Below, piece by piece: positions 1 through 53,523 of a stretch of 64,000 nt of DNA; position 1 is the stretch's first letter; every line of letters starts with the position of its first letter. Under the pieces are notes generated by a model. The model did not search any database. It saw only the letters and a program-made list of their open reading frames with translations, and was not told the origin of the DNA. Source of the DNA: Candidatus Dormiibacterota bacterium. GTDB lineage: Bacteria > Chloroflexota > Dormibacteria > Aeolococcales > Aeolococcaceae. The translations under genes were made by a program, and so were the position numbers. The DNA lies in contig DASYKI010000016.1 in assembly GCA_035995545.1 (NCBI GenBank), forward strand, positions 820,335 to 884,334, written 5' to 3'.

Positions 1-1963
<1,963 letters not shown>

Positions 1964-1967
<4 letters not shown>

Positions 1968-2320: not shown

Positions 2321-2352
2321 GGTCGCTCCTGAATCGGTGATGTCCATGCCGG

Positions 2353-2919
2353 TCACACTAGCTGCGGCTCGGTGAGGGGCGCTTCTCGATTCCTGACCGG
2401 TCTGGTCACCTGCTTGGACAGGCACGACGGCATCCCCGCCGTCGCCCGCGCCGCCAGGCGCCGGTAGGTGCTGGGCGGGACGCCGACCAGCGCGGTGAAG
2501 CGGGTGCTGAAGGTGCCCAGCGACGAGCAGCCCACCGCGAAGCAGGCGTCGGTGACGCTGACGTCGCCACGACGGAGCAGCGCCATGGCCCGCTCGATGC
2601 GCCGGGTCATCAGGTAGCCGTACGGCGCCTCGCCGTAGGCGAGCCGGAACTCGCGGCTGAGGTGCCCGGCCGACATGTGGGCACCCCGGGCGAGCGCCTC
2701 GACGTCCAGCGGCCGCGCGTACTCCCGGTCGATCCGGTCGCGGACGCGGCGCAGCCGGGCGAGGTCGCGCAGGTGCTGGTCCGCGGCCGGGCTGCTGGTC
2801 ACCTGCGAGATCGTGCCACGTCGCGGCGGAGGTGCGGGCGGCTTGGCGGCCGATCTGGAGGGGGCGGGTGGCCTTCGGTCCCGGAACCCACGCGGCGTGG
2901 GTGATTCCGTCGGAATCAC
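2353..2919 (-). CDS. AraC-family transcriptional regulator (small, HTH only)
   Basis: AraC-type double HTH: LDVEALARGAHMSAGHLSREFRLAYGEAPYGYLMTRRIERAMALL..VTDACFAVGCSSLGTFSTRFTALVGVPPSTYRR. The start is uncertain: 2919 is the longest GTG start, and an alternative GTG lies at 2802. Confidence 0.85.
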   Translation of the reverse strand: MIPTESPTPRGFRDRRPPAPSRSAAKPPAPPPRRGTISQVTSSPAADQHLRDLARLRRVRDRIDREYARPLDVEALARGAHMSAGHLSREFRLAYGEAPYGYLMTRRIERAMALLRRGDVSVTDACFAVGCSSLGTFSTRFTALVGVPPSTYRRLAARATAGMPSCLSKQVTRPVRNREAPLTEPQLV

Positions 2920-2957
2920 CGAAGGAGTGGCCGTTCGGCGCGAGTAAGGTCGGGGGC

Positions 2958-4409
2958 GTGAAGGGCTGGCATCCTCGTCGCGTCGCCTGGGCGGCGCTGG
3001 CCGCCGGGCTCGGAGCTGCGGCCGGAGCGATTCCCGCGCACGCCGCGCCCCTCCCGCCCGTGGTCGGGCTGCCCAACTACGGCGGGCCGAGCACCACCGG
3101 CACCGCCGCGATCCGGGCCGACGCCGCCAACGCCCAGCTGCGCGGCGCGGACGGGGCTCCCCTGGACGGGCGCGGGACGTCCGTCGCGATCATCGACACC
3201 GGCGTCGACCCCACCCATCCCGCCTTCGCGCTGCCCGACGGGTCGAGCAAGGTGGCGCTGAGCCTGTCGGCACTGCCCTGCCTGGCCCAGGAGTACACCG
3301 CGCCCACGGACGGATCGTGCATCAGCGCCCTGCCCGCGTCGGTGGACAGCGACACCGGGCACGGCGGGCACGGCAGCATGGTCGCGGGCGTTGCCGTCGG
3401 CACCCCGTACCTGCTGCCGGACGGGACCAGGGTGGGCGGCGTGGCGCCGGGCGCCCGGATCGTGATGATCTCGGCGACGGCGGCGCTGGTGGCCATCGAC
3501 AACGCGTTCTCCTGGGTGCTGCAGCACCACGCGGCGCCGTGCGGGGCCGGTGTGCCGGCGGCGGTCTGCCCGCCGATCCGCGTGCTCAGCTGCTCGTGGG
3601 GGGTGAACGACCCGGTGATCACCGCGCTGGAGGACAGGCTGGCGGCGGCGGGAGTGCTCACGGTGTGGGCCAACGGCAACCAGGGCGGCGACGGCACCAC
3701 CAGCCAGTCGAACCCAGGTCCGGCGGCGGATCCCACGCCGGGCGTGATGAGCGTGGCGTCGTTCGACGACGCCGGGACGGGCACGCGCGACGGCACCGTG
3801 TCCGCGACGTCGTCGCGCGGGGCGGCGGCGAAGCCCGCGACGTGGCCGGACATCTCGGCGCCGGGGGCGAACATCGTGTCGGCGTGCCGACCCTACCTGG
3901 CCATCTGCAACGCCATCGGCACCGGGCCCCGCAACGGGCCGGGGGCGGCCGATGTCGGTACCTACAACACCGCGTCGGGGACGTCCTTCTCGGCGCCCTC
4001 GCTGGCGGGGGTGATCGCCATGCTCTTTCAAGCCGATCCCGACGCAACCGCGGCGCGGATCGACGGCGCCCTGGTCGGGACGGCGTACAAGTACCGCGAC
4101 GGGGCGCCGTACCAGGCGGTCGGGTCGTACACGTCGAGCTTCGACAAGGGCGCCGGCCTGGTGGACGCGTTTGCCGCCGCGCTGGCCCTGGGCGCCAAGG
4201 GTGGCGGCGATCGCGTCGGCGATGTCGGGACCATTGGCCAACGTGTCGCGGCCGAAGCCGGTCCCGCGACGGTGACCGGGCTGCCGAACACCGCCGCCGG
4301 GTCTGGCCAGGCCACGCTTCCCGCGCTGCTCCTGGGTCTCGCTGCCGCGACCGGTGTGCGGCGCATCCGGCAGCGCAGAAACGTTGGCAGGGCTCGAGCG
4401 CGGCGATGA
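2958..4409 (+). CDS. Secreted subtilisin-like serine protease (peptidase S8) with a C-terminal cell-surface sorting-like signal
   Basis: Catalytic motifs IIDTGVD (Asp), HGGHGSMVAG (His) and SGTSFSAPSLAG (Ser). GTG 2958 gives a signal-peptide-like N-terminus (VKGWHPRRVAWAALAAGLGAAAGAIPAHA). The C-terminus has GLPNTAAG, then a hydrophobic stretch, then an Arg-rich tail. The track ORF is 2832..4409 and the start is uncertain. Confidence 0.9.
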   Translation: MKGWHPRRVAWAALAAGLGAAAGAIPAHAAPLPPVVGLPNYGGPSTTGTAAIRADAANAQLRGADGAPLDGRGTSVAIIDTGVDPTHPAFALPDGSSKVALSLSALPCLAQEYTAPTDGSCISALPASVDSDTGHGGHGSMVAGVAVGTPYLLPDGTRVGGVAPGARIVMISATAALVAIDNAFSWVLQHHAAPCGAGVPAAVCPPIRVLSCSWGVNDPVITALEDRLAAAGVLTVWANGNQGGDGTTSQSNPGPAADPTPGVMSVASFDDAGTGTRDGTVSATSSRGAAAKPATWPDISAPGANIVSACRPYLAICNAIGTGPRNGPGAADVGTYNTASGTSFSAPSLAGVIAMLFQADPDATAARIDGALVGTAYKYRDGAPYQAVGSYTSSFDKGAGLVDAFAAALALGAKGGGDRVGDVGTIGQRVAAEAGPATVTGLPNTAAGSGQATLPALLLGLAAATGVRRIRQRRNVGRARARR

Positions 4410-5812
4410 CTCTCGCAACCACTCCGGCCTTGGCCCTGCAGCAGCGACTCGACGAGCTCGCCGCGCGGCACAACGTCGTCGGTGCGTCGTTCGCGGTCCG
4501 GCACGGCGACGAGACCATCGAGGTCGCCACCGGCATCGCCAGCATGCGCACCGGCGCACCGGCAACGCCCGAGACACTCTTCCAGGTCGGCTCGATCACC
4601 AAGGTGTACACGGCGACACTGGTGATGCAGCTCGTAGAACGCGGCGTCCTCGACCTCGACGCGCCGGTGGCGCGCGCGCTGCCCGAGCTGCGTCTCAGCA
4701 CTCCGGACCTGCCCGAGCAGATCACCCTGCGACATCTGCTGACGCACACCAGCGGCATCGACGGCGACCACTTCGCCGACATGGGCCGCGGCGACGACGC
4801 GGTGGAGCGCTACGTCGCATCGTGCCGGCAGCTGCCGCAGATCTTCGCGCCCGGACGGATGTGCTCGTACTCCAACGCGGGGTACGTGATCCTCGGCCGC
4901 GTCCTCGAGGTGACACTGGGGACGACGTGGGACCGCGCGCTCGCGGAGAACGTGCTCAGGCCGCTGCAGTGCGCCGCGACGGTGACCCTGCCGGAGGACG
5001 CGATCCTGCACCCCGTCGCCATCGGGCACCTGCCCGGCGAGGGTGGCGACGTCACCGCGCCGCGTCCCACCCCGGTGTGGTCGCTGCCGCGCTCGGTGGG
5101 GCCGGCTGGACACGTCGTCGCCACGGCAGCGGACGTGCTGCGCTTCGCGCACATGCACCTCGACGGCGGCCGCGCCGCCGACGGCGCCCAGGTGCTCGAC
5201 GCGCAGACGGTGGCCGGCATGCGGCAGCCGCAGGTGGAGCTGATCGACCCCATGCTCGGCGACCACTGGGCGCTGGGCTGGTTCGGCTCGCACTGGGAGG
5301 GCGGCCGCACCGTCGGGCACGACGGCGCCACCATCGGCCAGGGCGCCTTCCTGCGCCTGCTGCCCGACCACCACCTCGCCGCCGTGCTGCTCACCAACGG
5401 CGGCTCGGTGCGCGCACTCTACGAGGACCTGTTCAGCGAGGTGCTCGCCGACCGCGCCGGCGTCGCCCTGCGGCGCACACCGGCGATCCCGCCGCCGGGA
5501 GGCGACACGCACCTCGACGTCGACCTCGATGCCCTCGAAGGCACGTACGAACGCTACGGGTTCCGCTACGAGATCGCCGCGCAGGACGACGGCACGCTGC
5601 AGCTGACGCCGTCGATCACCGTCGACGAGCCGCTGCTGGCCCTGGCCGCGCTGCCCACCCTGCGCATGGTGCCGTACCAGGGACTCACCGTCGTCTGCCA
5701 TCCGCCGGCGCTGCCGCAGGCGCGCGCGACGGGAACCTTCGCCGGCGTCGAGAACGGGCGCGCGCAGTGGCTGCACATCGGTGGCCGGGTGGCGCGCAGA
5801 GTGTCGCGTTGA
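4406..5812 (+). CDS. Serine hydrolase of the beta-lactamase/transpeptidase-like fold (class C / D-aminopeptidase / esterase type), cytoplasmic
   Basis: ATG 4406 overlaps the S8 stop (ATGA). Motifs are SxxK (SITK) and Y-S-N (SYSNAGY). There is no signal peptide, and there is an extra C-terminal domain of about 100 aa. Only the second part of track ORF 3317..5812 is real. Confidence 0.88.
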   Translation: MTLATTPALALQQRLDELAARHNVVGASFAVRHGDETIEVATGIASMRTGAPATPETLFQVGSITKVYTATLVMQLVERGVLDLDAPVARALPELRLSTPDLPEQITLRHLLTHTSGIDGDHFADMGRGDDAVERYVASCRQLPQIFAPGRMCSYSNAGYVILGRVLEVTLGTTWDRALAENVLRPLQCAATVTLPEDAILHPVAIGHLPGEGGDVTAPRPTPVWSLPRSVGPAGHVVATAADVLRFAHMHLDGGRAADGAQVLDAQTVAGMRQPQVELIDPMLGDHWALGWFGSHWEGGRTVGHDGATIGQGAFLRLLPDHHLAAVLLTNGGSVRALYEDLFSEVLADRAGVALRRTPAIPPPGGDTHLDVDLDALEGTYERYGFRYEIAAQDDGTLQLTPSITVDEPLLALAALPTLRMVPYQGLTVVCHPPALPQARATGTFAGVENGRAQWLHIGGRVARRVSR

Positions 5813-8021
5813 TCGAGGAACCGCAGGCCGGCATCGAGGCGGTGCGGGCGGCGGGACGCGCGGCCATGGGCGTCACCGGCCAGGACGTGCGCGAGTCGCT
5901 GCGCAGCGCGCTGCGCGCATCGCACGCGGGGTGGTACCCGCTGCTGGCGCTGGGCCTCCTGGCCATCATCGACACCTTCCAGCTCTACGCCTACGTCACC
6001 CTCGGGCCCGACATCAGCGCCTCGCTGGGAATCAGCAAGACCGCGGTGACCATGATCCTGGTGCTCGACCAGCTGGCCATCGTGCTGGCCAGCCTGGCCG
6101 CCGCGGGGCTCGTCCAGCGCGTGCCGCGGCGCGGCCTGGTGGCCAGCACCACGGGCATGGCCTGGAGCCTGATGACGTTGCTCACCGGACTGGTGACGTC
6201 GATCTGGCAGCTCGGCCTGGTGATGGTCGCCGACGGCGCCAGCAGCGGGTCGGTGCACGCGGTGCACAAGCCGCTGCTGCTGGACACCTATCCGGCCGCG
6301 ACGCGCGTGCGTGTGCTCAGTGCGTACCAGGTCGCCGCGGTGACGGGGACCATCCTCTCGCCGGCGCTGGTCGCGCTCCTCACCGGAGTCGTGCATCTGG
6401 GCTGGCGTGGCGTCTTCGTGGTCATGGGCCTGATCTGCGTGGCCAGCAGCCTGATCGCGGTGCGGCTGCGCGATCCCGGTTTCGGCGGCCAGGACACCGG
6501 CCGGCTGCGCGACGCCGTGCGCGCCGACGCGACCCGCCGCGACGGTGGCGGCAGCGCAGCGCCGGTTCCGCAGAGTGGCGATCCCGCAACCAGCCTGCGC
6601 GTGATGGAGATCGTGCAGCGCCTGATGATCATCCCCACCATGCGGCGCACCCTCGCCGTCGCCGCCGCGCTCGGCGTGGGACTGGTGCCGCTCAACAGCT
6701 ACTTCTCCTTCTTCCTCGAACAGCGCTGGGGCCTGGGGCCGACGCAGCGCGCGCTGTTCTTCGCCCTGGTGCCTGTGTTCACCGCGATCGCGCTGGTGGT
6801 CGGCTCGCGACACGGCGAGTCGCTGTACCGCCGTGACCCTGCCCGGCTGATGCGCCTCGGCGCGCTGCTCATCGGTGGCGCCGCGGTCAGCCTGATCGCG
6901 GTGGTGGCGGCGCCGGTGTTCTGGATGATGGCGCTCGCCTTCGCGCTGACCAGCGCGATGCTGGCCGGCGTGGTGCCCGCGCTGTACACCGGTGCGCTGT
7001 CGGTGGTGGCGCCGCGCATGCGGCCGCACGCGTCGGCGCTGCTCGGCGTCTTCCTGGTTGCCGTCGGCGGCATCCTGGGCCTGCTGGTGCTGGGCAGCGC
7101 CGATTCGCGCTACGGGCCGGCGGGGTCGGTGGTGGCGGTGTGCTTCCCGTGCATCGTGGCCGCGCTGCTGATGCGCTCGGCGGCGGGCAGCGTCAACACC
7201 GATCTCGACAACCTCATCGACGAGATCGTCGAGGCGGAGCAGCTGACCCGCCTCGACGCTCGCGGCGTGCAGCTCCCGCTGCTGAGCTGCCGGCGGGTGA
7301 GCTTCTCCTACGGCGCGCTGCAGGTGCTCTTCGACGTCGACTTCAGCGTCGAGGACGGCGAGATGGTGGCCCTGCTCGGCACCAACGGCGCGGGCAAGTC
7401 GACGTTGCTGCGCGTCATCGCCGGCACCGGCCTGCCCTTCAGCGGCAGCGTGCGCTATCGCGGCGCGGACATCACCTATCTCGACGCCGAGCGCCGCGTG
7501 CGGCTCGGCATCGCCCAGGTCCCGGGCGGGCGCGCCGTGTTCGGGCGCATGTCCGTCGTCGACAACATGCGCGTCTTCGGCTTCACCCACGGACGCGACC
7601 GCCGCGCCGTCGACCGCGGTATCGAGCGCAGCCTGGCCGCGTTCCCCCGTCTCGGCGAGCGGCGCAACCAGGCGGCGGGAACGCTGAGCGGCGGCGAGCA
7701 GCAGATGCTGGCTCTGTCCAAGGCGCTCATCCTCGAGCCGAGACTGCTGTGCATCGACGAGCTCTCGCTGGGACTGGCGCCCAAGGTGGTCGGCGAGCTG
7801 CTCACCATGGTGCGCGCCATCAACGCGACGGGCACCGCGGTGGTGCTGGTCGAGCAGTCGGTCAACGTCGCGCTGTCGCTGGTCGAGCGTGCCTATTTCA
7901 TGGAGAAGGGGGAGGTGCGCTTCCAGGGCCGCGCGTCGGAGCTGCTCGACCGCGACGACCTGCTGCGCTCGGTGTTCCTCGAAGGCGCGGCGCGCGGTCT
8001 CGCCGGCGCCGGGACCGGGCG

Positions 8022-8025
<4 letters not shown>
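5809..8025 (+). CDS. Fusion protein: MFS-like polytopic membrane domain plus LivF-like ABC ATPase
   Basis: This is the real part of track ORF 4354..8025. Start candidates are TTG 5809 (TTGA overlap with the upstream stop at 5810-5812), GTG 5842 and ATG 5866. About 12 hydrophobic helices are followed by Walker A GTNGAGKST, signature LSGGEQQM and Walker B LLCIDELS. Confidence 0.85.
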
Positions 8026-10847
<2,822 letters not shown>

Positions 10848-10858
10848 GGAGGACGACC

Positions 10859-13366
10859 GTGACCAACCACCGAGCCACCGTCGCGCCTCTCCGCGCGCTG
10901 CTCTGCGCCGCACTCGCCGTCGCCGCGTCGGCCGGTGCCGCACTCAGCTTCGTCCGCGCCGCCGGCGCCGAGGTGGCCGGCACCCCGATGAACCTCCACG
11001 TTGACGCGCAGGAGTACGCGGCGACGGCTCCCGCCGACCCGTACCAGCACGACGCGGCGGCCATCCACGTCAGCGTCGCCGGCGGCCAGGACACCACGCG
11101 CAGCTACGTCCACGTCGACCTGGCCGGGCTGGTCGGCGGCGCCATGCCGACCTCGGTCCTGCTCAGCCTGACTCCCAACGGCGACGCCGCCGCCAACGCC
11201 AACGGCAGCGCGGCGACGCTGCAGGCGTGTCCGCTGCTGGGATCGCTGGAGCCGTTCAACCCGACCTCGCCGCCCGGTTTCGACTGCACCAGCGCGGCGC
11301 ACGGCACGCCGGCCGCCGCGGGCACGTGGACCTTCGAGCTGGCCCCGCTGATGCAGCGCTGGCTGCTCGAAACCAACCGCGGCGTCGCCATCGTCGCCGA
11401 CCACAGCGCCGCGACCGCGACCTGGTTCACCGCCTTCGATAGGAGCAAGACACGGGCGATCGCGGTCGTGCCGGTGAGCGACTCGCCACCGCTGTCGACG
11501 TACACCTTCCCCGCGGTGCCGGCAGCGCCGCCACCCGCACCGCCGCCCGCGGCCGTGGCGCCGCCGTTCCTGTCAGTACCGGCCACAACTCCGGGGCCAC
11601 CGAGCGCGGCAACACCGGGGCCGTCGCCGTCGCCGAGCAGCGCCGCGAGTGCAGCCGGCGGAGCCGGCACCGGCACCCCACCCGCGCCGGGTGCCGCCAC
11701 CATGCACGTGGAACCCGCCAGCACCTGGCTGTGGTGGCTGCTCGGCTCCGTCCTGCTCGGCGCCGCAGCCGCGCTGGCCATGGTGGTGCAGCGCGCGGTG
11801 CGAGATGCCCACCGTCTTCCCGACGCCGCCGCGCTGCGCGCCGCCCTGCGCCATCCCGACCTGCGCCTCTCTCGCGCCGGCGCGCTGGTCATGATCGGCG
11901 CCGTCGTCGCCGTCGGCTTCTCCAACCGCCTCGCCGTCCAGGGCAGTCCCGCCGCAGCGGGCAGCTCCGGACCGCAGGCGGCTGCGGGCGCAACCCCCAG
12001 CAGCGGCGCAGCCGGCGGCGGCAACACCGGCGCCACGGCGCCACCACCCGGCGCAGCGAGCGGGCCCGCCGCCGCACAGAGCGCAGCCGCCGCCGCCCAG
12101 AGCGCCGCCGCCGCCGCAGCAGCAGCGGGAGCGCAGGCACCCACCGGCGACATCCCCGGCGTGACCGCCACCACCATCCGCATCGGCTTCATGACCGAGA
12201 CCAACCGCTCGGCGGGCAACGGCGCCATCGGAGCCAAGAACATCGGCGACTACGGCAACGTGCCCGCCCAGGCGCAGGCGATGGCCGACTGGCTCAACCG
12301 CAACGGGGGCATCGCCGGACGCCGGGTGATCCCGGTGATGGAGAACTTCGACGCCTCCAACACCGACCCCAACCAGGAGGCGGCGCTCTGCACCAAGTTC
12401 ACCCAGGACGACCACGTCTTCTCCGTCGTCGACATCGAGTCCAACCTCGACTACGGAGCGTGCTACGCGCACGCGCACACACTCGTGGTCGAGGCGCAGA
12501 CCTACCAGGGCGACACGCAATTGATGGACCACCTCGCCCCGTACGTGTTCGACTCGACCACGCCACCCAACGAGCGCGCCTTCCAGGTGCACGCCGACGG
12601 CCTTGCCCAGCAGGGATTCTTCGGCAAGACCGACAAGGTGGGCATCATCGTCGCCGACGATCCGCTGATCCGCCGCGACTTCACCGAGGTGGCCATGCCG
12701 CGCCTCGCCCGCGCCGGGGTGACCAATCCCGACCTCTACTACGTCAACCCCTACTCCGACACCGGCACCAAGGCGCGCGACCTGGGCACCGCGGTGACCC
12801 GCATGCACAGCAACGGCGACACCGAGGTCATGCTCTTCGGCGACTCCGGGGGCGGCGCCACCCTGATCACCATGGCCGCGGCCAAGGGCCAGGGCTGGTA
12901 CCCCAAGTGGGGTCTCGACACCAGCAGCGCACCCGGCGCGCTGGAGACCATCAGCCAGATCTCCGACGAGATGAAGACCGCGGTGGTGGTCGGCTACAAC
13001 CGCACCTACGACGCGGAGAGCGACAGGGGCGGCGAGCCGGTGCCGGCCTCGCCGCTGGAAAAGCTCTGCGTCGACACCTACAGGGCGGCGGGGATCAGCT
13101 TCGCCACCCGGCTCAACTCGGTGGTCGCCTACCGCTACTGCGACTACGCCTTCCTGCTGCACCAGGCCTCGCAGGGGCTCGGCGCCAACCTGAGCATCCA
13201 GACCCTGATGGCGCAGGCGTGGCACCTGGGCAGCTCGTACATGTCGGTCAACGCCTACCACGCCACCTTCAACGGCCGGCCCTACGGCACCGACGGCTAC
13301 CGCATGCTCGGCTACGACACCGGGTGCTCATGCTTCAAGTACAGCAGCCCGACCTACACGTTCTGA
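10859..13366 (+). CDS. Composite envelope protein: signal peptide + unknown beta-rich domain + Pro-rich linker + 2 TM helices + Ala/Gly linker + Liv-type (type I PBP) substrate-binding domain
   Basis: GTG 10859 is preceded by GAGGAGG (6-nt spacer) and lies 11 nt after the upstream stop. The signal peptide is LLCAALAVAASAGAALS. The TM helices are WLWWLLGSVLLGAAAALAMVV and ALVMIGAVVAVGF. The SBP-like part starts GVTATTIRIGF. Only the last 835 codons of track ORF 7889..13366 are real. Confidence 0.8.
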   Translation: MTNHRATVAPLRALLCAALAVAASAGAALSFVRAAGAEVAGTPMNLHVDAQEYAATAPADPYQHDAAAIHVSVAGGQDTTRSYVHVDLAGLVGGAMPTSVLLSLTPNGDAAANANGSAATLQACPLLGSLEPFNPTSPPGFDCTSAAHGTPAAAGTWTFELAPLMQRWLLETNRGVAIVADHSAATATWFTAFDRSKTRAIAVVPVSDSPPLSTYTFPAVPAAPPPAPPPAAVAPPFLSVPATTPGPPSAATPGPSPSPSSAASAAGGAGTGTPPAPGAATMHVEPASTWLWWLLGSVLLGAAAALAMVVQRAVRDAHRLPDAAALRAALRHPDLRLSRAGALVMIGAVVAVGFSNRLAVQGSPAAAGSSGPQAAAGATPSSGAAGGGNTGATAPPPGAASGPAAAQSAAAAAQSAAAAAAAAGAQAPTGDIPGVTATTIRIGFMTETNRSAGNGAIGAKNIGDYGNVPAQAQAMADWLNRNGGIAGRRVIPVMENFDASNTDPNQEAALCTKFTQDDHVFSVVDIESNLDYGACYAHAHTLVVEAQTYQGDTQLMDHLAPYVFDSTTPPNERAFQVHADGLAQQGFFGKTDKVGIIVADDPLIRRDFTEVAMPRLARAGVTNPDLYYVNPYSDTGTKARDLGTAVTRMHSNGDTEVMLFGDSGGGATLITMAAAKGQGWYPKWGLDTSSAPGALETISQISDEMKTAVVVGYNRTYDAESDRGGEPVPASPLEKLCVDTYRAAGISFATRLNSVVAYRYCDYAFLLHQASQGLGANLSIQTLMAQAWHLGSSYMSVNAYHATFNGRPYGTDGYRMLGYDTGCSCFKYSSPTYTF

Positions 13367-13404
13367 GCAGCGGCGCGGCCCCGGCGCCCGCCTATGCTGC
13401 CCAC

Positions 13405-14991
13405 GTGGTCACCCTGGAGCAGGTCCTCGACTCGCTCGGCGTCGACGTGCTGCGCCCGCTGGCCGCGCCGCAGGGGCTGCAGATGCCGGTGTCGGCGTTG
13501 AGCATCTTCGACCCCGACGATCCCACCCCGGCCGGCGAGGGCACGGTGGTTCTCGGCATCGGCCTGCGTCCCGACCGCGACCTGCGCCAGGTGATGGAGC
13601 GGCTGGCCGAGCAGGGCGCGGTGCTGGCCATCAAGGTTCCCGCCGGCGTGCAGGCGCGCCTGGCGGCCGACGCCGAGTCGCTCGGCCTCACCGTGCTGGC
13701 GGTTGCGCCGGGCGCGGCCTGGGTGCACCTCGTCGCCCTGCTGCGCTCGGTGATGGAGTCGGTGCCCGGCGAGCGGTCCGGCGAACGCCTCGGTGGCGCG
13801 GCGGCGGGCGACCTCTTCGCGGTGGCCAACGCGGTGGCCGCACTGGTCGACGCACCGGTGACCATCGAGGACGCGCAGTCGCGCGTGCTCGCCTACTCGG
13901 GCCGCCAGGACGAGGCCGACGAGGCGCGCAAGCTGACCATCCTCGGCCGCCAGATCCCCGAGGCCTACTACCGCAGGTTCCAGCGCGACGGCGTCTACCG
14001 CCGCCTCTCGAGCAGCCGTGAGCCGCTCTACCTCGACAGCCTCGGCCCCGACGTGCTGCCGCGCGTCGCCGTCGGTGTCACCGCGGGCGACGAGGTGCTC
14101 GGTTCCATCTGGGCAGCGGTGCGCACCAGGCCCAGCGACGCGCAGATGCGCGAGCTGGCCGAGGCGGCCAGCTTCGTCGCCATCCACCTGCTGCGCCACC
14201 GCCTCGCCGTCGACGTGCAGCGCAGCCTGCACACAGATCTGGTCGCTGTTGTCATCAACGGGGGCAGCCTCGCCGCCGACGCGGCCGGCCGGCTCGGCCT
14301 GGTGGGGGAGGGGTTTCGCGTCCTCGCCGTCGGCCTGCGTCCCGATGCCCAGGAGGACAACGAGCTGGCCCTGCTGCGCGCCTGGGACACGCTGTCGATG
14401 CACCTCTCGGTGGTGCACCGGCGCGCCGCCAGCGGCCTGGTCCAGGGTGTCGTCTACGCGGTGCTGCCCGCGCCGTCCGACCCCGCGCAGAGCCGCCGCG
14501 CCGCCGAGCAGGCGGCGGAGGGGTTCCTGGCGCGCATCCCCGCACCGCGCCGCGAGCAGCTCATCGTCGCCGCCGGCGGACACGCCGCCGACCTGGTAGC
14601 GCTGCCCCAGTCGCGGCGCGACGCCGACCGCGTGCTCCGCGTCCTGGGGTCTCGCACACCACGCGCGCAGTCGAGCGTCGGTGCCATCGACGACCTGCGC
14701 CTGCAGGTGCTGCTGCTCCGTCTCGCCGAGCTGGCCGACGAGGAGTCGATCTCCGAGACCGGCCCGCTGCACGACCTGGTCGAGCACGACCGCCGCCACC
14801 GCACCCACCACGTCGCCACCCTGCGCGCCTACCTCGACTGCTTCGGCGACGTCCTCGCCGCCGCGCGCTCCCTCGGCGTCCACCACAACACCTACCGCTA
14901 CCGGTTGCAGAAGCTGCGCCAGCTCCCCGGCATCGACCTCGACGACCCCGACCAGCGTCTCGCCCTGATGCTGCAGCTGCGGTTGACGTAG
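13405..14991 (+). CDS. PucR/CdaR-family transcriptional regulator
   Basis: The start is GTG 13405 (VVTLEQVLDSLG). There is a C-terminal PucR-type HTH (LRAYLDCFGDVLAAARSLGVHHNTYRYRLQKL). This is the real part of track ORF 11731..14991. Confidence 0.88.
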   Translation: MVTLEQVLDSLGVDVLRPLAAPQGLQMPVSALSIFDPDDPTPAGEGTVVLGIGLRPDRDLRQVMERLAEQGAVLAIKVPAGVQARLAADAESLGLTVLAVAPGAAWVHLVALLRSVMESVPGERSGERLGGAAAGDLFAVANAVAALVDAPVTIEDAQSRVLAYSGRQDEADEARKLTILGRQIPEAYYRRFQRDGVYRRLSSSREPLYLDSLGPDVLPRVAVGVTAGDEVLGSIWAAVRTRPSDAQMRELAEAASFVAIHLLRHRLAVDVQRSLHTDLVAVVINGGSLAADAAGRLGLVGEGFRVLAVGLRPDAQEDNELALLRAWDTLSMHLSVVHRRAASGLVQGVVYAVLPAPSDPAQSRRAAEQAAEGFLARIPAPRREQLIVAAGGHAADLVALPQSRRDADRVLRVLGSRTPRAQSSVGAIDDLRLQVLLLRLAELADEESISETGPLHDLVEHDRRHRTHHVATLRAYLDCFGDVLAAARSLGVHHNTYRYRLQKLRQLPGIDLDDPDQRLALMLQLRLT

Positions 14992-15023: not shown

Positions 15024-15338
15024 ATGAGCGACACCACCGACACCGCGTCCGCCTGCACCCACCTCGACGCCGTCGCCACCGACCTCACCCCCAGCGGCCA
15101 GGGCTGCAAGCAGTGCCTGGAGTCCGGAGGGCGCTGGCTGCACCTGCGCCTCTGCCTGGAGTGCGGGGAGGTGGGCTGCTGCGACGACTCGCCCAACCGC
15201 CACGCCACCGCGCACTTCCACGCCAGCGGCCATCCCCTGATCCGCTCCTACGAGCCCGGCGAGGACTGGTGGTGGTGCTTCGTCGACGAGATGGTCTTCG
15301 AGGTCGACGACGACCCCTTCAGCGGCCTCCACCACTGA
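15024..15338 (+). CDS. UBP-type zinc-finger domain protein
   Basis: The Cys/His pattern CKQCLESGGRWLHLRLCLECGEVGCCDDSPNRHATAHFHASGH is typical of small actinobacterial Znf-UBP proteins. Confidence 0.85.
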   Translation: MSDTTDTASACTHLDAVATDLTPSGQGCKQCLESGGRWLHLRLCLECGEVGCCDDSPNRHATAHFHASGHPLIRSYEPGEDWWWCFVDEMVFEVDDDPFSGLHH

Positions 15339-15750: not shown

Positions 15751-15779
15751 GCGATGTCGTGCCTCTGCTCGTTGATGGG

Positions 15780-17463: not shown

Positions 17464-18594
17464 TCAGCCCAGCAGGTCCTCGATCAGGCCGGCCACCAGC
17501 GCGGCGCGGTCGGGCATGGTCGCGGCGATGACGTGCTCGTCCTCGGCGTGGGCGCCGCCGCCGACGGCGCCGAGTCCATCGAGGGTCGGGGTGCCCTGGG
17601 CGGCGGTGAGGTTGCCGTCGGAGCCACCGCCCACCTCGACGCCGTCGAGCGCGTCCAGCCCCAGCCGTTCGGCGACCGACGTCGCGCGCTGGAAGAGGTC
17701 CTGGGCCATGCGCGACGGCAGCGGCGGCCGGTCGGGCCCGCCGCGCAGGCTGAGGCGCGCGCCGGGCAGCGTCGCGGCGAGGTCGTGCATCTCGTCGTCG
17801 ACGCGGCGCTGCTCCTCGGGGCTCAGCGCGCGCACGTCGACGTGCAGGTGCGCGGACGCGGGCACCACGTTGGTCGCCGTCCCGCTCGACGCCACCGTGG
17901 GCGTGACCGTTGTGCCCAGCTCCGGACGGGCGATGCGCGCCAGCCCCAGCACGGCGTGGGCCAGCTCGACGGTGGCGTTGACGCCCTTCTCCGGCTCCAG
18001 CCCCGCGTGCGACGCCCTGCCCTCGACGTCGAGCTGGTACGTCGACACGCCCTTGCGCGCGATCTTGAGGGCGGCGCCCTGGCTGGGTTCGAGGACGAGC
18101 ACGGCCTGCACCCGGCGGGCGGCGTCCTTGATGACGCCGCGCGACGTCGCCGAGCCGACCTCCTCGTCGGAGGTGAACAGGATCTCGACGCCCTCTCGGT
18201 GCCTGCCGGCGAGGGCCGCGACGGCGAAGAAGCCCTGCACGATGCCCGCCTTCATGTCGAAGACGCCGGGACCGGTGAGGCGGCCGTCCACCTCGGCGAA
18301 GGGGATGCGCTGCAGCGTGCCCAGCGGCCACACGGTGTCGAAGTGGCCGAGCAGCAGGACGCGTGGCTGCGCGCCGAGCCGCCAGTGCAGGTGGGGGAGA
18401 CCGCCGCTCTCGATCCACTCCGGGGCGGCGCCCATGACCTCCTCGCCGACGCGCGCGACGACGTCTGCGCAGGCGCGCAGGGCCGCCGCGTCGGACGAGG
18501 GCGATTCCATCTCGACCAGCGCGCGCACCGCGTCGCGCATCTGCGCCTGGCGGTCGCGGAGATCAGTTGTGGGCACGGTTGTCTCAATCTCCAT
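17464..18594 (-). CDS. M20-family metallopeptidase (carboxypeptidase G2 / N-acyl-L-amino-acid amidohydrolase type)
   Basis: M20 blocks LLLGHFDTVWP, GPGVFDMKAG and TSDEEVGS, a central dimerisation-domain-like segment, and a C-terminal GGSDGN..GGGAHAEDEH. Confidence 0.88.
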   Translation of the reverse strand: MEIETTVPTTDLRDRQAQMRDAVRALVEMESPSSDAAALRACADVVARVGEEVMGAAPEWIESGGLPHLHWRLGAQPRVLLLGHFDTVWPLGTLQRIPFAEVDGRLTGPGVFDMKAGIVQGFFAVAALAGRHREGVEILFTSDEEVGSATSRGVIKDAARRVQAVLVLEPSQGAALKIARKGVSTYQLDVEGRASHAGLEPEKGVNATVELAHAVLGLARIARPELGTTVTPTVASSGTATNVVPASAHLHVDVRALSPEEQRRVDDEMHDLAATLPGARLSLRGGPDRPPLPSRMAQDLFQRATSVAERLGLDALDGVEVGGGSDGNLTAAQGTPTLDGLGAVGGGAHAEDEHVIAATMPDRAALVAGLIEDLLG

Positions 18595-18606
18595 TGCGGC
18601 TGCGCT

Positions 18607-19596: not shown

Positions 19597-19614
19597 GGCA
19601 CTCGCGGCGGGGCG

Positions 19615-20517
19615 ATGCTACTGTCAGGGTGCCTCATGCGTGCACATGGCGCCGTTCTGCTCGACTCTGCGACTGCCGATGCCACCCTCGACGCGGCCCG
19701 CGCCGCGGCCGAGCGGGCGGCGCGGTCGGCCGGCGTGCGCATCGCGACGCCCACCGAGGTCGCCGACCTCGACCCCGCCGCCGCCCTCTGGCGGAAGGTG
19801 TGGAGCCCCGAGGCCGAGCCTCCCGTCTCCGGCGAGATGCTGCGCGCCCTCACCCACGCGGGCAACTACCTGAGCTGTGCCTACGACGGCGACCGCCTCG
19901 CCGGCGCGCTGCTCGGCTTCTTCGGCGGCGGCGCGCACGTCGACCACCTGCACTCGCACATCCTCGGCGTCGAGCCCGAGTTCGAAGGGCGCGGTGTCGC
20001 CTTCGCCCTCAAGCTGCACCAGCGCGCCTGGGCCCTGCAGCGCGGCATCGAGCGCATCAGCTGGACGTACGACCCGCTGGTGCGCCGCAACGGGCACTTC
20101 AACCTGGTCAAGCTGGGTTGCCGCGGCGTCGAGTACCTTGTCGACTTCTACGGCGTCATGCCCGACGCCATCAACGGTGGCGACCCCACCGACCGCATCC
20201 TGGTGGAGTGGGACGTGGCCGCCGGCGAGCGCGCTGCTGTTCCTGATGACGTCGACGCGTGGCTCGCCCGCGGTGCCGAGGTCGTGCTCGACGCCGACGC
20301 GGCGGGGTTGCCGCAGCGTCGCGATGTCTCGGGTGCAGGCGCGCTGCTGTGCGCGACGCCGTCCGACATCGTGGCGCTGCGTCGCAGCGATGCGGCGGCG
20401 GCGCGCGACTGGCGCCACGCGCTGCGTGACGTGGTGTGCGCCGCGTTCGGCAATGGGATGCGGCTGCGCACCATGGCGCGCGGCGGCTGGTACGTGCTGG
20501 CGCGCGACGGCGACTGA
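19615..20517 (+). CDS. GNAT-superfamily acyltransferase of the type found next to NSAR/OSBS genes (COG3375-like)
   Basis: This is the real part of track ORF 17134..20517. The start is ATG 19615 or 19636. The core reads HLHSHILGVEPEFEGRGVAFALKLHQRAWALQRGIERISWTYDPLVRRNGHFNLVKLG. Confidence 0.75.
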   Translation: MLLSGCLMRAHGAVLLDSATADATLDAARAAAERAARSAGVRIATPTEVADLDPAAALWRKVWSPEAEPPVSGEMLRALTHAGNYLSCAYDGDRLAGALLGFFGGGAHVDHLHSHILGVEPEFEGRGVAFALKLHQRAWALQRGIERISWTYDPLVRRNGHFNLVKLGCRGVEYLVDFYGVMPDAINGGDPTDRILVEWDVAAGERAAVPDDVDAWLARGAEVVLDADAAGLPQRRDVSGAGALLCATPSDIVALRRSDAAAARDWRHALRDVVCAAFGNGMRLRTMARGGWYVLARDGD

Positions 20518-20564: not shown

Positions 20565-21707
20565 TTACTCGCCGGGGCGCACGACCTGCGTCGAGGTGGC
20601 CAGCGCGTCGACCACATCGCGGTGCACGTCGACACCGATGCCGGGTCCCTGCGGTACGGCGATGGTGCCGTCGGGATCGAGCACGAAGGGCGCGGTGAGG
20701 TCCTGCTTGTAGTAGCGGTCTGACGCGGAGGTGTCGCCCGGCAGGGTGAAGCCGGGCAGCGCCGCGAGCGCGAGGTTGGCGGCGCGTCCCACGCCGGTCT
20801 CCAGCATGCCGCCGCACCACACCGGCACGCCGCGCTCCCGGCAGACGTCGTGGATGCGCACCGACTCCAGGTAGCCGCCGACGCGTCCCGGCTTGATGTT
20901 GACGATGCTGCACGCCTGCATCTCGATCGCCTCCTCGGCGACCACCGCGGACACGATGGACTCGTCGAGGCAGATCGGGGTGCGCACCTGGCGCGCCAGC
21001 ACGGCGTGGGCGAGGATCTGCTCCTCCGGCAGCGGCTGCTCGATGAGCAGCAGGCCGAACTCGTCGAGCCTGGCCAGCTGCGGCGCGTCGTCGAGGGTGT
21101 ACGCGGTGTTGGCGTCGACCTGCAGCAGCATGTCGTCGCCGAAGCGCCGGCGCACCGCGCCCACCGGCTCGACGTCCCAGCCCGGTTCGATCTTCAGCTT
21201 GATGCGCGCATATCCCTGGGCCACGTACTGGTCGACGGTGTCGAGCAGCTGCGCGATCGACGGCATGATGCCGACCGACACGCCGCTCGACACGCGGTCG
21301 TGCACCGCGCCCAGGTGGGCGGCCAGCGAACGCCCCGCACTGCGCAGCTCCGCGTCGAGCCACGCCGCCTCCAGCGCCGCCTTGGCCATGCGATGTCCCT
21401 TGACCGGGGCCAGGATCTCGGCGACCTGCTCGGCCGTCACCGGCTGCCTGAGCAGGCGGGGGAGGAGGTGCTCGGTGATCACCCGCTGCGCCGCGTCCAC
21501 GTACTCCGACGAGTACAGCGGCTCCTGCATGGCGACGCACTCGCCCCACCCCTCCGCGCCGCCCGCGATGACGTGCACCAGCAGCACGTCGCGCCGGGTC
21601 TCGGTCCCGAAGGAGGTCCGGAACGGCGCCACCAGGGGCAGCTCGACCCGGATCAGCTCCACCGCCTCGATGGCGACGGGCGCAGCCAGGGAATTCGCGG
21701 TTGCCAT
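20565..21707 (-). CDS. Enolase-superfamily o-succinylbenzoate synthase / N-succinylamino acid racemase-like enzyme
   Basis: The start is ATG 21707 (MATANSLAAPVAIEAVELIRV). MLE-subgroup catalytic blocks are KLKIEPGWD (KxK), VDANTAY, IEQPL, LDES and NIKPGRVGG. It encodes 380 aa. Confidence 0.9.
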   Translation of the reverse strand: MATANSLAAPVAIEAVELIRVELPLVAPFRTSFGTETRRDVLLVHVIAGGAEGWGECVAMQEPLYSSEYVDAAQRVITEHLLPRLLRQPVTAEQVAEILAPVKGHRMAKAALEAAWLDAELRSAGRSLAAHLGAVHDRVSSGVSVGIMPSIAQLLDTVDQYVAQGYARIKLKIEPGWDVEPVGAVRRRFGDDMLLQVDANTAYTLDDAPQLARLDEFGLLLIEQPLPEEQILAHAVLARQVRTPICLDESIVSAVVAEEAIEMQACSIVNIKPGRVGGYLESVRIHDVCRERGVPVWCGGMLETGVGRAANLALAALPGFTLPGDTSASDRYYKQDLTAPFVLDPDGTIAVPQGPGIGVDVHRDVVDALATSTQVVRPGE

Positions 21708-53521: not shown

Positions 53522-53523
53522 CC

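What the first reader, a model, noticed from the sequence alone, without database searches (positions are those of the whole stretch)
2958..14991. A 10.4-kb translationally coupled operon joining a surface protease, a cytoplasmic serine hydrolase and a fully domain-shuffled Liv-type ABC importer
Seen in sequence: five consecutive plus-strand genes are joined by overlaps or tiny gaps. These are ATGA at 4406-4409, TTGA at 5809-5812 (or a 53-nt gap if ATG 5866 is used), ATGA at 8022-8025, and an 11-nt gap with GAGGAGG before GTG 10859. A PucR-type regulator starts 38 nt later. The content is an S8 subtilase with a cell-surface sorting-like tail, a signal-less beta-lactamase-fold hydrolase, MFS::LivF, LivH::LivM::LivG, and unknown-domain::SBP. 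Inference: this looks like an extracellular cleavage, uptake and intracellular hydrolysis route for a peptide-like (possibly D-amino-acid-containing) substrate. I know of no described system with this composition and fusion pattern.
Basis: partly seen in the sequence, partly recalled or inferred. Interest (0 to 1): 0.8.

Follow-up and report, generated by a model that had tools for sequence, protein, structure and literature searches.

The report
D-amino-acid scavenging locus with fused ABC importer
A soil actinobacterial gene cluster joins a wall-anchored protease, a cytoplasmic D-peptidase-type hydrolase and an oddly fused Liv-type ABC importer, and its conserved neighbours suggest that it scavenges D-amino-acid compounds, which has not been tested.

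Summary
Five plus-strand genes (2958-13366) are joined by ATGA, TTGA and ATGA overlaps and one 11-nt gap with GAGGAGG. A PucR gene starts 38 nt later. All domain calls hold.

The unknown domain of gene 5 is a CBM-like beta-sandwich. A transmembrane hairpin tethers it to a LivJ/AmiC-fold binding protein.

The fusion pattern is not unique. MFS::LivF plus LivH::LivM::LivG is a widespread family in Actinomycetota, Acidimicrobiia and Dormibacterota. I found no paper describing it. It nearly always has a small lipoprotein gene ("sm") just upstream, and the window has lost that gene.

The S8/S12 pair occurs only in the window's close clade. In two relatives it is a separate two-gene unit. PucR probably has its own leaderless promoter.

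New evidence comes from the window itself, 2.5-6.7 kb downstream. [quoted passage not shown] This trio, S12 hydrolases and a D-aminoacylase homologue recur beside the transporter in independent loci.

Best reading: uptake and salvage of D-amino-acid compounds, confidence about 0.5. This is a new variant of a known kind.

The parts
2945..2950 (+). Candidate -10 hexamer TAAGGT, 7 nt upstream of the S8 start codon. It fits a leaderless-mRNA-type promoter for the operon.
   Evidence: A TANNNT hexamer lies 6-7 nt before a conserved GTGAAGGG start in the window, L002, L166 and L167. This is inference; no transcript data.
2958..4409 (+). Gene 1: secreted S8 subtilase, 483 aa. It has a signal peptide, catalytic residues D80, H135 and S343, and oxyanion N239. 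The C-terminal LPNTA sorting signal is followed by a hydrophobic stretch and an Arg-rich tail.
   Evidence: Pfam Peptidase_S8 at 112 bits. Motifs and tail. The tail is LPDTG in L002 and LPNTA in L166 and L167. The mycosin model scores 71 bits against a cut-off of 279, so it is not a mycosin.
4406..5812 (+). Gene 2: cytoplasmic S12-family (beta-lactamase-fold) serine hydrolase, 468 aa. Motifs are S63-x-x-K66, Y155-x-N157 and H305-x-G307. About 130 extra C-terminal residues are probably a lipocalin-like lid.
   Evidence: Pfam Beta-lactamase at 228 bits. The class C beta-lactamase model scores 87 bits against a cut-off of 415. Best solved relatives: IS11 7spn at 1.7e-58, SurE 6ksu at 1.6e-46, Ulm16, alkaline D-peptidase and Pab87. 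Motifs.
5809..8025 (+). Gene 3: MFS::LivF, 738 aa. An MFS domain of about 12 TM segments (residues about 40-465) is fused to a LivF-type ABC ATPase (residues about 490-738). The ATPase has Walker A GTNGAGKS and signature LSGGEQQM.
   Evidence: The family is conserved: 70 invariant columns in the MFS part. The TTG start is homologous to GTG in relatives.
8022..10847 (+). Gene 4: LivH::LivM::LivG, 941 aa. It contains two BPD_transp_2 permease domains and a LivG-type ATPase with the BCA_ABC_TP_C tail.
   Evidence: It lies next to MFS::LivF in 19 of 19 loci that have at least 6 kb on both sides.
10859..13366 (+). Gene 5, 835 aa. In order: signal peptide; CBM-like beta-sandwich (10964-11524); Pro/Ala linker; TM hairpin (about 11723-11938) with an Arg-rich cytoplasmic loop; Ala/Gly/Ser linker; LivJ/AmiC-fold binding protein (12134-13363).
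   Evidence: N-domain model has pLDDT 91. Its best solved match is the chondroitin-sulfate-binding CBM 8wab, TM 0.67-0.69. SBP model has pLDDT 71.5, with top Foldseek hits to Leu/amide/urea binding proteins at E 1e-14. Peripla_BP_6 scores 28.7 bits, below its cut-off of 31.7. TM segments. The two halves are separate adjacent genes in L083.
13393..13398 (+). Candidate -10 hexamer TATGCT, 6 nt upstream of the PucR GTG. It suggests a leaderless promoter of PucR's own.
   Evidence: TATAGT or TATATT lies 7-8 nt before the homologous GTG in L166, L086 and L167. No Shine-Dalgarno sequence is present. Inference only.
13405..14991 (+). Gene 6: PucR-family transcription regulator, 528 aa.
   Evidence: HTH_30 at 76.7 bits. 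GGDEF_2 at 23.9 bits, below its cut-off of 24.5. It recurs near the transporter in 7 of 30 loci and in L166 and L167.
17464..18594 (-). M20 metallohydrolase, 376 aa. It is the candidate N-succinyl-L-amino-acid desuccinylase.
   Evidence: Peptidase_M20 plus M20_dimer. Homologues at 54-72% identity lie next to the transporter in L090, L096, L108, L133, L155, L166 and L167. The function is assigned by context only. The nearest solved structure is carboxypeptidase G2.
19615..20517 (+). GNAT-fold protein, about 300 aa (start codon uncertain). It is the candidate D-amino-acid N-succinyltransferase.
   Evidence: Acetyltransf_6 and Acetyltransf_1. No curated NCBIfam family. It lies next to NSAR in the window, L096, L101, L108 and L167, and is present in 7 of 30 loci.
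20565..21707 (-). [quoted passage not shown]
   Evidence: 1SJA (Amycolatopsis NSAR) at E 1.4e-152. K161, K163, D189, E214, D239, K263 and R266 are all conserved. TIGR01928 scores 322 bits against a cut-off of 200.65.

Best explanation
The locus is a scavenging route for D-amino acids or small D-amino-acid-containing compounds, such as short peptides or N-acyl or amide derivatives. These would most plausibly come from cell-wall and other microbial debris. The route is built around a Liv-type (HAAT-family) ABC importer.

Shown by sequence and homology:
- A leaderless-type promoter candidate precedes five overlapping genes.
- Gene 1 is a secreted S8 protease with a sortase sorting signal, so it would sit on the cell wall.
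- Gene 5 puts two domains outside the membrane, held by a TM hairpin. One is a CBM-like beta-sandwich and the other a LivJ/AmiC-fold binding protein.
- Genes 3 and 4 form the translocator. LivH-LivM-LivG is one chain, and a 12-TM MFS domain fused to LivF is the other. Both ATPase domains have intact motifs.
- Gene 2 is a signal-less S12 hydrolase with an intact catalytic site.
- A GNAT, an NSAR/OSBS and an M20 hydrolase lie 2.5-6.7 kb downstream.

Inferred:
1. The protease and the CBM-like domain work at the wall or on debris to release and hold substrate.
2. The binding domain delivers the substrate to the importer.
3. The S12 hydrolase frees D-amino acids in the cytoplasm.
4. GNAT succinylates them, NSAR racemises them, and M20 removes the succinyl group to give L-amino acids.
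5. PucR, made from its own promoter, controls the set.

The role of the MFS domain is unknown. It is too conserved to be a dead anchor.
For: Domains and motifs.

S12 relatives. Among the solved relatives are SurE, Ulm16, alkaline D-peptidase, Pab87, ClbP, R61 DD-peptidase and D-amino-acid amidase. From my own knowledge most of these act on D-configured acyl groups. A 2026 paper places D-specific peptidases Lip3 and Lip7 in family S12 and names IS11 and SurE as their closest structures (PMC12903863).

Binding protein fold. CBM-like domain.

NSAR/OSBS is about 70% identical to Amycolatopsis NSAR. All catalytic residues and the NSAR specificity residue R266 are conserved. R266's role is described in PMC12006748.

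Co-conservation despite rearrangement:
- L166 order: S8, S12, then M20 and GNAT on the minus strand, then sm, MFS::LivF, LivHMG, gene 5, PucR.
- L167 order: S8, S12, then NSAR and GNAT on the minus strand, then sm, MFS::LivF, LivHMG, gene 5, a D-aminoacylase homologue, PucR, M20.
- The D-aminoacylase homologue matches 1M7J at E 3.5e-93.

More distant loci (51-58% identity) also carry GNAT, NSAR, M20 or S12 genes within 10 kb, in varied order.

Counts by gene-order class:
- Order sm, MFS::LivF, LivHMG: 17 of 24 loci have such a gene.
- Order LivHMG, sm, MFS::LivF: 0 of 7.
- Fisher p = 0.0013, with categories chosen post hoc. Without the S12 genes it is 11 of 24 against 0 of 7, p = 0.033.
Against: - No experiment of any kind.
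- To my knowledge, HAAT-type binding proteins take amino acids, urea, amides or aromatic or fatty acids, not peptides. The protease-to-importer link is therefore weak.
- The closest solved relative of gene 2, IS11, is a carboxylesterase with no apparent enantio-preference on esters (PMC9972953).
- About half or more of the family's loci show no D-amino-acid gene within 10 kb.
- The one cultured carrier seen, Dactylosporangium (L003), has acyl-CoA-type neighbours.
- The GNAT matches no curated family.
- The nearest solved relative of the M20 is carboxypeptidase G2, so both the GNAT and M20 roles rest on context.
- In the window, three unrelated genes (zf-UBP, a 143-aa hypothetical, GH28) separate PucR from the trio.
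- NSAR/OSBS enzymes can also serve menaquinone synthesis.
Confidence: 0.5

Rival explanations
1. The system imports N-acylated amino acids, amino-acid amides or esters, or similar small xenobiotic or natural compounds. Gene 2 would act as an esterase or amidase rather than a D-peptidase. The D-amino-acid enzymes would then be only one of several downstream fates.
For: - The closest solved relative, IS11, is an esterase.
- L167 has an N-acyl-D-amino-acid deacylase homologue inside the operon.
- By fold, the relatives of the binding protein include amide, urea and aromatic-acid binders. By profile the nearest is the 4N03 fatty-acid binder, though at a weak E of 0.02.
Against: - This does not explain the surface S8 protease or the repeated GNAT-NSAR adjacency, unless the acyl amino acids are D-configured. 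In that case it merges with the main explanation.
- The esterase activity of IS11 came from a screen on esters. One search found no mention of D-amino acids in that paper.
Confidence: 0.2
2. It is an ordinary branched-chain or hydrophobic L-amino-acid importer, as databases annotate it. The hydrolase, protease and racemase genes would be chance or loosely related neighbours.
For: - The NBDs score best against the LivF and LivG models.
- The permease domains are BPD_transp_2.
- Top fold matches of the binding protein include Leu-bound proteins.
- Many family loci have no D-amino-acid genes nearby.
Against: - All equivalog scores are far below cut-off: LivF 193 against 441, LivG 205 against 362.
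- The binding protein is too divergent for Pfam.
- NSAR-type genes are, to my knowledge, few per genome, yet they lie within 10 kb in at least 7 independent arrangements.
- The S8-S12-transporter-PucR-GNAT/M20 set stays together through several rearrangements.
Confidence: 0.15
3. It is an antibiotic-related island that takes up, exports or detoxifies beta-lactams or D-amino-acid-containing non-ribosomal peptides. Two beta-lactamase-fold genes and an MFS domain would serve this role.
For: - An S12 gene and a class-A beta-lactamase-like gene (18607-19596) are present.
- The MFS domain shows weak similarity to drug-efflux models.
- A UvrA-like ATPase lies upstream.
Against: - Gene 2 lacks a signal peptide and scores 87 bits against the class C cut-off of 415.
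- The class-A-like gene scores 92 bits against a cut-off of 200. It is absent from related loci.
- A binding-protein-dependent Liv-type system is an importer.
- The best MFS model hit is a D-galactonate-type permease at 63 bits against 395.
- The upstream genes are on the other strand and are not conserved with the set.
Confidence: 0.07

Closest known systems
LivJ/K-LivHMGF of Escherichia coli and other HAAT-family (TC 3.A.1.4) ABC importers
   Same: It has two BPD_transp_2 permease domains, LivG-like and LivF-like ATPases, and a type I (LivJ/AmiC-fold) binding protein.
   Different: - LivH, LivM and LivG are one polypeptide.
- LivF carries a conserved 12-TM MFS domain at its N-terminus.
- The binding protein is tethered by a TM hairpin and fused to a CBM-like domain.
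- In most of the family a small lipoprotein gene overlaps the start of MFS::LivF, but not in the window.
- Every equivalog score is well below cut-off.
- The substrate is unknown.
[quoted passage not shown] 2006, as cited in bioRxiv 10.1101/2022.03.03.481873 and PMC12006748)
   Same: All three enzyme types are present together in the window at 17464-21707. They recur beside the transporter in other loci. The NSAR has every catalytic residue and R266.
   Different: - Here the trio is linked to an ABC importer, an S12 hydrolase, an S8 protease and a PucR regulator.
- A term search of PMC12006748 found no occurrence of 'transporter', so at least that paper does not link the pathway to an uptake system.
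- In the window the three genes are not one operon. They lie on mixed strands, with a class-A beta-lactamase-like gene between them.
- The GNAT and M20 assignments rest on context.
S12-family hydrolases with a C-terminal lipocalin-type domain: IS11 esterase (7SPN), SurE and Ulm16 peptide cyclases, Pab87 peptidase
   Same: The beta-lactamase fold with SxxK, YxN and HxG motifs, a comparable length (456-471 aa against 468 aa), and an extra C-terminal region.
   Different: - No NRPS genes were noticed among the window's reading frames, which were not all annotated. A cyclase role is therefore unlikely.
- The C-terminal 100-130 residues are not aligned by sequence, so the lipocalin lid is inferred.
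- The activity is unknown.
Murein-peptide recycling in Gram-negative bacteria: Mpp/Opp uptake, LdcA, L-Ala-D/L-Glu epimerase YcjG and a dipeptidase (from my own knowledge)
   Same: The logic is the same: import a D-amino-acid-containing fragment, process it in the cytoplasm, use an enolase-superfamily enzyme to invert a D-centre, then hydrolyse.
   Different: - A different transporter family: HAAT rather than the peptide family.
- A different enolase-superfamily branch. NSAR scores 322 bits, against about 60 bits for the L-Ala-D/L-Glu epimerase models.
- A succinylation step.
- A surface protease.
Mycosins (type VII secretion S8 proteases with a C-terminal anchor)
   Same: An S8 protease with a signal peptide and a C-terminal hydrophobic anchor region. 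The NCBIfam model aligns to its very end.
   Different: - The score is 71 bits against a cut-off of 279.
- No type VII secretion genes were seen among the annotated neighbours.
- The tail has an LPNTA or LPDTG sortase motif.

Membership tests
HAAT-family (Liv-type) ABC importer | Two BPD_transp_2 (LivH/LivM-type) permease domains | tested here: met
   PF02653 at 184 bits, in two stretches, in gene 4.
HAAT-family (Liv-type) ABC importer | A LivG-type and a LivF-type ATPase with intact Walker A, signature and Walker B motifs | tested here: met
   The best NCBIfam models are LivF (193 bits) for gene 3 and LivG (205 bits) plus BCA_ABC_TP_C for gene 4. Both are below the equivalog cut-offs of 441 and 362. 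Walker A and the signature motif were found in both genes. The Walker B pattern search matched only gene 4; in gene 3 Walker B was read by eye as LLCIDE.
HAAT-family (Liv-type) ABC importer | Type I (cluster B, Peripla_BP_6) substrate-binding protein | tested here: met
   Foldseek top hits are Leu, amide and urea binding proteins at E 1e-14 to 1e-11, probability 1.0. The model pLDDT is only 71.5 and TM about 0.4. Pfam Peripla_BP_6 scores 28.7 bits, below its cut-off of 31.7. The homologue P0135 carries PF13458.
HAAT-family (Liv-type) ABC importer | Transports hydrophobic L-amino acids | not testable with these tools
   Needs binding or uptake assays.
Major facilitator superfamily | MFS_1 profile match and about 12 TM segments in a 6+6 arrangement with a central loop | tested here: met
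   PF07690 at 90.4 bits against a cut-off of 33.4. A crude hydropathy scan gives about 6+6 segments around a loop at residues 223-311. No curated MFS subfamily is reached: the best is 63 bits against 395.
Subtilase (peptidase S8) | Asp-His-Ser triad in the order D, H, S, with an oxyanion Asn | tested here: met
   D80 (DTG), H135 (HGGH), N239 (NGN), S343 (GTSFSAP). Pfam scores 112 bits.
Sortase-anchored surface protein | An LPXTG-like motif, then a hydrophobic stretch, then a positively charged tail at the C-terminus | tested here: met
   LPNTA at 442, then LPALLLGLAAATGV, then RRIRQRRNVGRARARR. The motif is LPDTG in L002 and LPNTA in L166 and L167.
Sortase-anchored surface protein | A cognate sortase in the genome | tested here: inconclusive
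   A motif scan of the 64-kb window found no convincing sortase. The rest of the genome is not available.
Mycosin (type VII secretion protease) | Score above the TIGR03921 cut-off | tested here: not met
   71 bits against a cut-off of 279.
Peptidase S12 / family VIII esterase (beta-lactamase fold) | SxxK, YxN and a third H/K-x-G motif on a PF00144 fold | tested here: met
   S63ITK, Y155SN, H305DG. PF00144 scores 228 bits.
Class C beta-lactamase | Score above the NF033085 cut-off, and secretion | tested here: not met
   87 bits against a cut-off of 415. There is no signal peptide.
PucR/CdaR-family regulator | C-terminal PucR-type helix-turn-helix (HTH_30) | tested here: met
   PF13556 at 76.7 bits. 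The GGDEF_2 middle domain scores 23.9 bits against a cut-off of 24.5.
NSAR/OSBS subfamily of the enolase superfamily | A family model above cut-off; KxK, D, E, D and K catalytic residues; and the NSAR-specificity residue R266 | tested here: met
   TIGR01928 at 322 bits against a cut-off of 200.65. 1SJA matches at E 1.4e-152 with K161, K163, D189, E214, D239, K263 and R266 all aligned and identical. The role of R266 is described in PMC12006748.
[quoted passage not shown] | GNAT succinyltransferase, NSAR and M20 desuccinylase encoded together | tested here: met
   All three lie within 4.3 kb in the window. The GNAT-NSAR adjacency is repeated in L096, L101, L108 and L167.
[quoted passage not shown] | Succinyl transfer to D-amino acids and L-specific desuccinylation | not testable with these tools
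   The GNAT has no curated family. The nearest solved structure to the M20 is carboxypeptidase G2. Enzyme assays are needed.

The most novel reading that the evidence does not exclude
MFS::LivF + LivH::LivM::LivG, usually with a coupled small lipoprotein, would be a distinct architectural class of ABC importer. In it an MFS-fold domain is a working third membrane module. It might be a second pathway, a by-product exporter, or the docking site for the lipoprotein or binding protein. One branch of the class would be the missing uptake step of the D- to L-amino-acid salvage pathway in soil Actinomycetota and relatives.
Probability: 0.25. Interest if true: 0.8.

Novelty: new variant of a known kind. 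Interest (0 to 1): 0.6.

Why it matters
From general knowledge, D-amino acids from cell walls and microbial peptides are a steady nitrogen and carbon pool in soil. The NSAR pathway that turns them into L-amino acids is not linked to an uptake system in the two NSAR papers I consulted. This locus and its relatives offer a concrete candidate: a binding-protein-dependent importer sitting with the pathway genes, with S12 hydrolases and, in one relative, a D-aminoacylase homologue.

Separately, an MFS domain conserved as part of an ABC importer subunit is structurally odd. I found no description of it. Databases currently label at least 120 protein clusters simply 'MFS transporter' or 'LivF'.

Both points can be tested directly with purified domains.

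Tried and rejected
1. The genome-contig scan with the full MFS::LivF alignment chose LivF-domain patterns. I repeated the idea on metagenome contigs with the MFS part only, and that worked.
2. The word-indexed homologue search with whole gene 5 was swamped by low-complexity linkers and gave 11 hits. The SBP part alone gave 8. The exhaustive search with the N-domain gave 139 representatives.
3. The P0034 look-up found no record.
4. The promoter and terminator consensus scan found nothing above the shuffled background.
5. I looked for a shared operator upstream of the S8, sm, GNAT and PucR genes. A CCGAA-N10-TTCGG inverted repeat appears only in the window and L002, so I did not pursue it.
6. 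The sortase motif scan of the window gave no credible hit.
7. A profile of the SBP family against PDB sequences gave only marginal hits, 4N03 at E 0.02. No ligand-contact residues could be read.
8. Literature searches for an MFS-LivF fusion or for a transporter linked to NSAR found nothing relevant.
9. I considered and rejected three identities. Mycosin is rejected on score. A SurE-type cyclase is unlikely because no NRPS genes were noticed. A class C beta-lactamase is rejected on score and because gene 2 has no signal peptide.
10. I considered whether the sm lipoprotein equals the gene 5 N-domain. No similarity appeared in tblastn, and L166 and L167 carry both.

Full report
**Source and gene structure**

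The junctions are as described: ATGA at 4406, TTGA at 5809, ATGA at 8022, an 11-nt gap holding GAGGAGG before GTG 10859, and 38 nt before the PucR GTG at 13405.

An 82%-identical relative from an NCBI metagenome-assembled genome (L002) has the same gene order and the same overlaps. The arrangement is therefore real and not an assembly artefact. Four-base overlaps are ordinary in high-G+C operons, so the coupling itself is not remarkable.

**What each gene is**

- **Gene 1** is an S8 subtilase with an intact triad (D80, H135, S343) and a signal peptide. Its tail is LPNTA, then a hydrophobic stretch, then an Arg-rich end. Orthologues carry LPDTG (L002) or LPNTA (L166, L167) in the same place. 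It is therefore a sortase-type sorting signal. It is not a mycosin: 71 bits against a cut-off of 279.
- **Gene 2** is a signal-less S12/beta-lactamase-fold hydrolase with S63xxK, Y155xN and H305xG. It is far from class C beta-lactamases (87 bits against 415). Its closest solved relatives are IS11, SurE, Ulm16, alkaline D-peptidase and Pab87. IS11 is a beta-lactamase-like domain capped by a lipocalin lid (PMC9972953). IS11 and SurE are also the closest structures to newly described D-specific S12 peptidases (PMC12903863).
- **Gene 3** is an MFS domain (90 bits) fused to a LivF-type ATPase.
- **Gene 4** is LivH::LivM::LivG.
- **Gene 6** is a PucR-family regulator.
- **Gene 5** had no family above threshold. 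I modelled its two halves separately.

*Gene 5, C-terminal half.* The last 410 residues fold as a type I binding protein. Their top matches are Leu-, amide- and urea-binding proteins at E 1e-14 to 1e-11. Pfam Peripla_BP_6 scores 28.7 bits, just under threshold.

*Gene 5, N-terminal half.* Residues 36-222 give a confident beta-sandwich (pLDDT 91). Its best solved match is a chondroitin-sulfate-binding carbohydrate-binding module, TM 0.67-0.69, followed at much weaker score (E 1e-2, TM about 0.4) by an alginate-binding module.

*Between the halves.* Two hydrophobic segments flank an Arg-rich loop. This fits a TM hairpin that leaves both domains outside the cell.

In L083 the two halves are separate neighbouring genes. 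In an exhaustive search, many of the N-domain's 139 representatives are about 800 aa and many others about 200-400 aa, which fits fused and free-standing forms.

**How common the fusion pattern is**

It is common. All 120 best homologues of MFS::LivF carry both MFS_1 and ABC_tran. They come from Actinomycetota, Acidimicrobiales and Dormibacterota assemblies, named only 'MFS transporter' or 'LivF'.

I collected 80 metagenome loci with an MFS-domain-only alignment and mapped all components by tblastn:

| Component near MFS::LivF | Frequency |
|---|---|
| LivH::LivM::LivG adjacent | 19 of 19 loci with at least 6 kb on both sides |
| Gene-5C-like binding protein | 17 of 19 |
| Gene for a ~150-aa lipoprotein ('sm'; no Pfam hit) directly upstream | 69 of 72 |
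| Gene-2-like S12 hydrolase | 10 of 19 |
| Gene 5 N-domain | 8 of 19 |
| PucR | 6 of 19 |
| S8 | only the window and L002 |

The exceptions to the sm rule are the window, the matching copy in L002, L086 and the distant L003. I found no paper that describes this architecture.

**The informative neighbours**

An all-against-all clustering of reading frames from 38 loci showed three further recurrent neighbours:
- a GNAT-like protein of about 300 aa;
- an enolase-superfamily protein;
- an M20 hydrolase.

All three are also in the window, just beyond the reported region: M20 at 17464-18594 (-), GNAT at 19615-20517 (+) and the enolase-superfamily gene at 20565-21707 (-).

The enolase-superfamily protein is an NSAR/OSBS. 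It matches Amycolatopsis N-succinylamino-acid racemase at E 1.4e-152, with K161, K163, D189, E214, D239, K263 and R266 all conserved. It passes TIGR01928 at 322 bits against a cut-off of 200.65. R266 is a published NSAR-specificity residue (PMC12006748).

**Close relatives of the window**

| Locus (MFS::LivF identity) | Gene order |
|---|---|
| L166 (83%) | S8, S12, then M20 and GNAT on the minus strand, then sm, MFS::LivF, LivHMG, gene 5, PucR |
| L167 (78%) | S8, S12, then NSAR and GNAT on the minus strand, then sm, MFS::LivF, LivHMG, gene 5, amidohydrolase, PucR, M20 |

The amidohydrolase in L167 matches D-aminoacylase 1M7J at E 3.5e-93.

The same parts therefore stay together through several rearrangements. 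This is the usual sign of a functional unit. It also shows that the window's single S8-to-binding-protein operon is a derived state. The segment between the S12 gene and MFS::LivF was lost or moved, along with sm. The start codon kept its place, overlapping the upstream stop: TTGATCGAG in the window against GTGATCGAC in relatives.

More distant loci (51-58% identity) also carry GNAT, NSAR, M20 or S12 genes in varied orders. Counts by gene-order class:
- Order sm, MFS::LivF, LivHMG: 17 of 24 loci have at least one such gene.
- Order LivHMG, sm, MFS::LivF: 0 of 7.
- Fisher p = 0.0013, with categories chosen after seeing the data. Without the S12 genes it is 11 of 24 against 0 of 7, p = 0.033.

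**Transcription signals**

The consensus scan was empty. Comparison was more useful.

A TANNNT hexamer sits 6-7 nt before a conserved GTGAAGGG S8 start in four loci. Another sits 6-8 nt before the PucR GTG in four loci, with no Shine-Dalgarno sequence. From my own knowledge this is the usual layout of leaderless transcripts in Actinomycetota.

It fixes the S8 start at 2958, not 2868 as the database gene call has it. It fixes the PucR start at 13405. It also suggests that PucR is its own transcription unit. No transcript data exist.

**Most likely mechanism**

The steps are inferred unless marked.
1. A wall-anchored protease and a CBM-like domain act at the cell surface.
2. A tethered binding protein hands a D-amino-acid compound to a two-chain importer with two ATPase domains. 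The architecture is shown; the function is inferred.
3. The cytoplasmic S12 hydrolase releases D-amino acids.
4. GNAT, NSAR and M20 convert them to L-amino acids.

I put this at about 0.5. The weak points are these:
- To my knowledge, Liv-type binding proteins are not known to take peptides.
- IS11, the nearest solved relative of gene 2, is an esterase with no apparent enantio-preference on esters.
- About half or more of the family's loci show no D-amino-acid gene within 10 kb. The only cultured carrier seen, a Dactylosporangium at 37% identity, has acyl-CoA-type neighbours. The family as a whole clearly serves more than one substrate.
- The GNAT and M20 roles rest on context.

The rivals are an importer for N-acyl, amide or ester compounds (0.2), a plain hydrophobic L-amino-acid importer (0.15) and an antibiotic-related island (0.07).

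**Verdict**

The D-amino-acid idea is strengthened. The claim that the fusion pattern is unique is not upheld. The protease, the hydrolase and PucR are accessory or separately transcribed parts rather than core.

The system is a new variant of a known kind: a Liv-type ABC importer. Two features deserve experiments:
- a conserved MFS domain built into an ABC importer subunit, whose role is unexplained;

Noticed in passing
window 47543-57078 (+): A second Liv-type system with a different build. In order: acyl-CoA ligase (47543-49204), unknown 623-aa protein (49332-51203), LivH::LivM fusion (50888-53521), separate LivF (53518-54261), separate LivG (54259-55149), then an enoyl-CoA hydratase (56143-57078). 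It has no MFS domain and looks like an organic-acid uptake and activation operon.
   Followed up: partly
window 3-2802 (-): A divergent unit upstream of the S8 gene: AraC-family regulator (2353-2802), a glyoxalase/VOC protein (about 1964-2350), and a UvrA-like double-ABC ATPase that runs off the left end of the window. It is not conserved with the transporter set in relatives.
   Followed up: partly
window 18607-19596 (-): A class-A beta-lactamase-like gene lies between the M20 and GNAT genes. PF13354 scores 198 bits. The NCBIfam class A model scores 92 bits against a cut-off of 200. It is not found in the related loci.
   Followed up: partly
window 15024-17414: A zf-UBP protein (15024-15338, +), a 143-aa hypothetical (15319-15750, -) and a GH28 glycoside hydrolase (15780-17414, -) separate PucR from the M20 gene. 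None occurs in related loci, so this is probably an insertion. In L167, PucR is followed directly by M20.
   Followed up: partly
L002 1505-1951; L083 9480-9998; L085 1785-2222; L166 7814-8272; L167 9552-10004: A ~150-aa predicted lipoprotein ('sm') with no Pfam family. Its gene lies directly upstream of MFS::LivF in 69 of 72 loci, and its stop overlaps the MFS::LivF start in L166 and L167. It is missing in the window, in L002 copy 2 and in L086. Its function is unknown.
   Followed up: partly
L002 1-6986: The 82%-identical relative carries a second, paralogous system just upstream of its S8 gene. It comprises an SBP, sm, MFS::LivF (59% identity) and LivHMG.
   Followed up: no
L167 3130-4263 (-) and 17528-19099 (+): A diaminopropionate ammonia-lyase (318 bits against a cut-off of 276) lies next to the S8 gene. 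A D-aminoacylase homologue lies inside the transporter operon of a 78%-identical relative.
   Followed up: partly
L083 19790-20857 (-): A Peptidase_M19 (renal-dipeptidase-type) gene sits between two gene-2-like S12 hydrolase genes beside a 54%-identical transporter. From my own knowledge, some bacterial M19 enzymes prefer L-Xaa-D-Xaa dipeptides.
   Followed up: no
window 2890-2940 and L002 upstream of S8: An inverted repeat CCGAA-N10-TTCGG lies just upstream of the candidate -10 of the S8 gene in the window. A similar one (CCGAA-N11-TTCG) is in L002. It was not found in L166 or L167 by the pattern used. It may be an operator or may be chance.
   Followed up: partly
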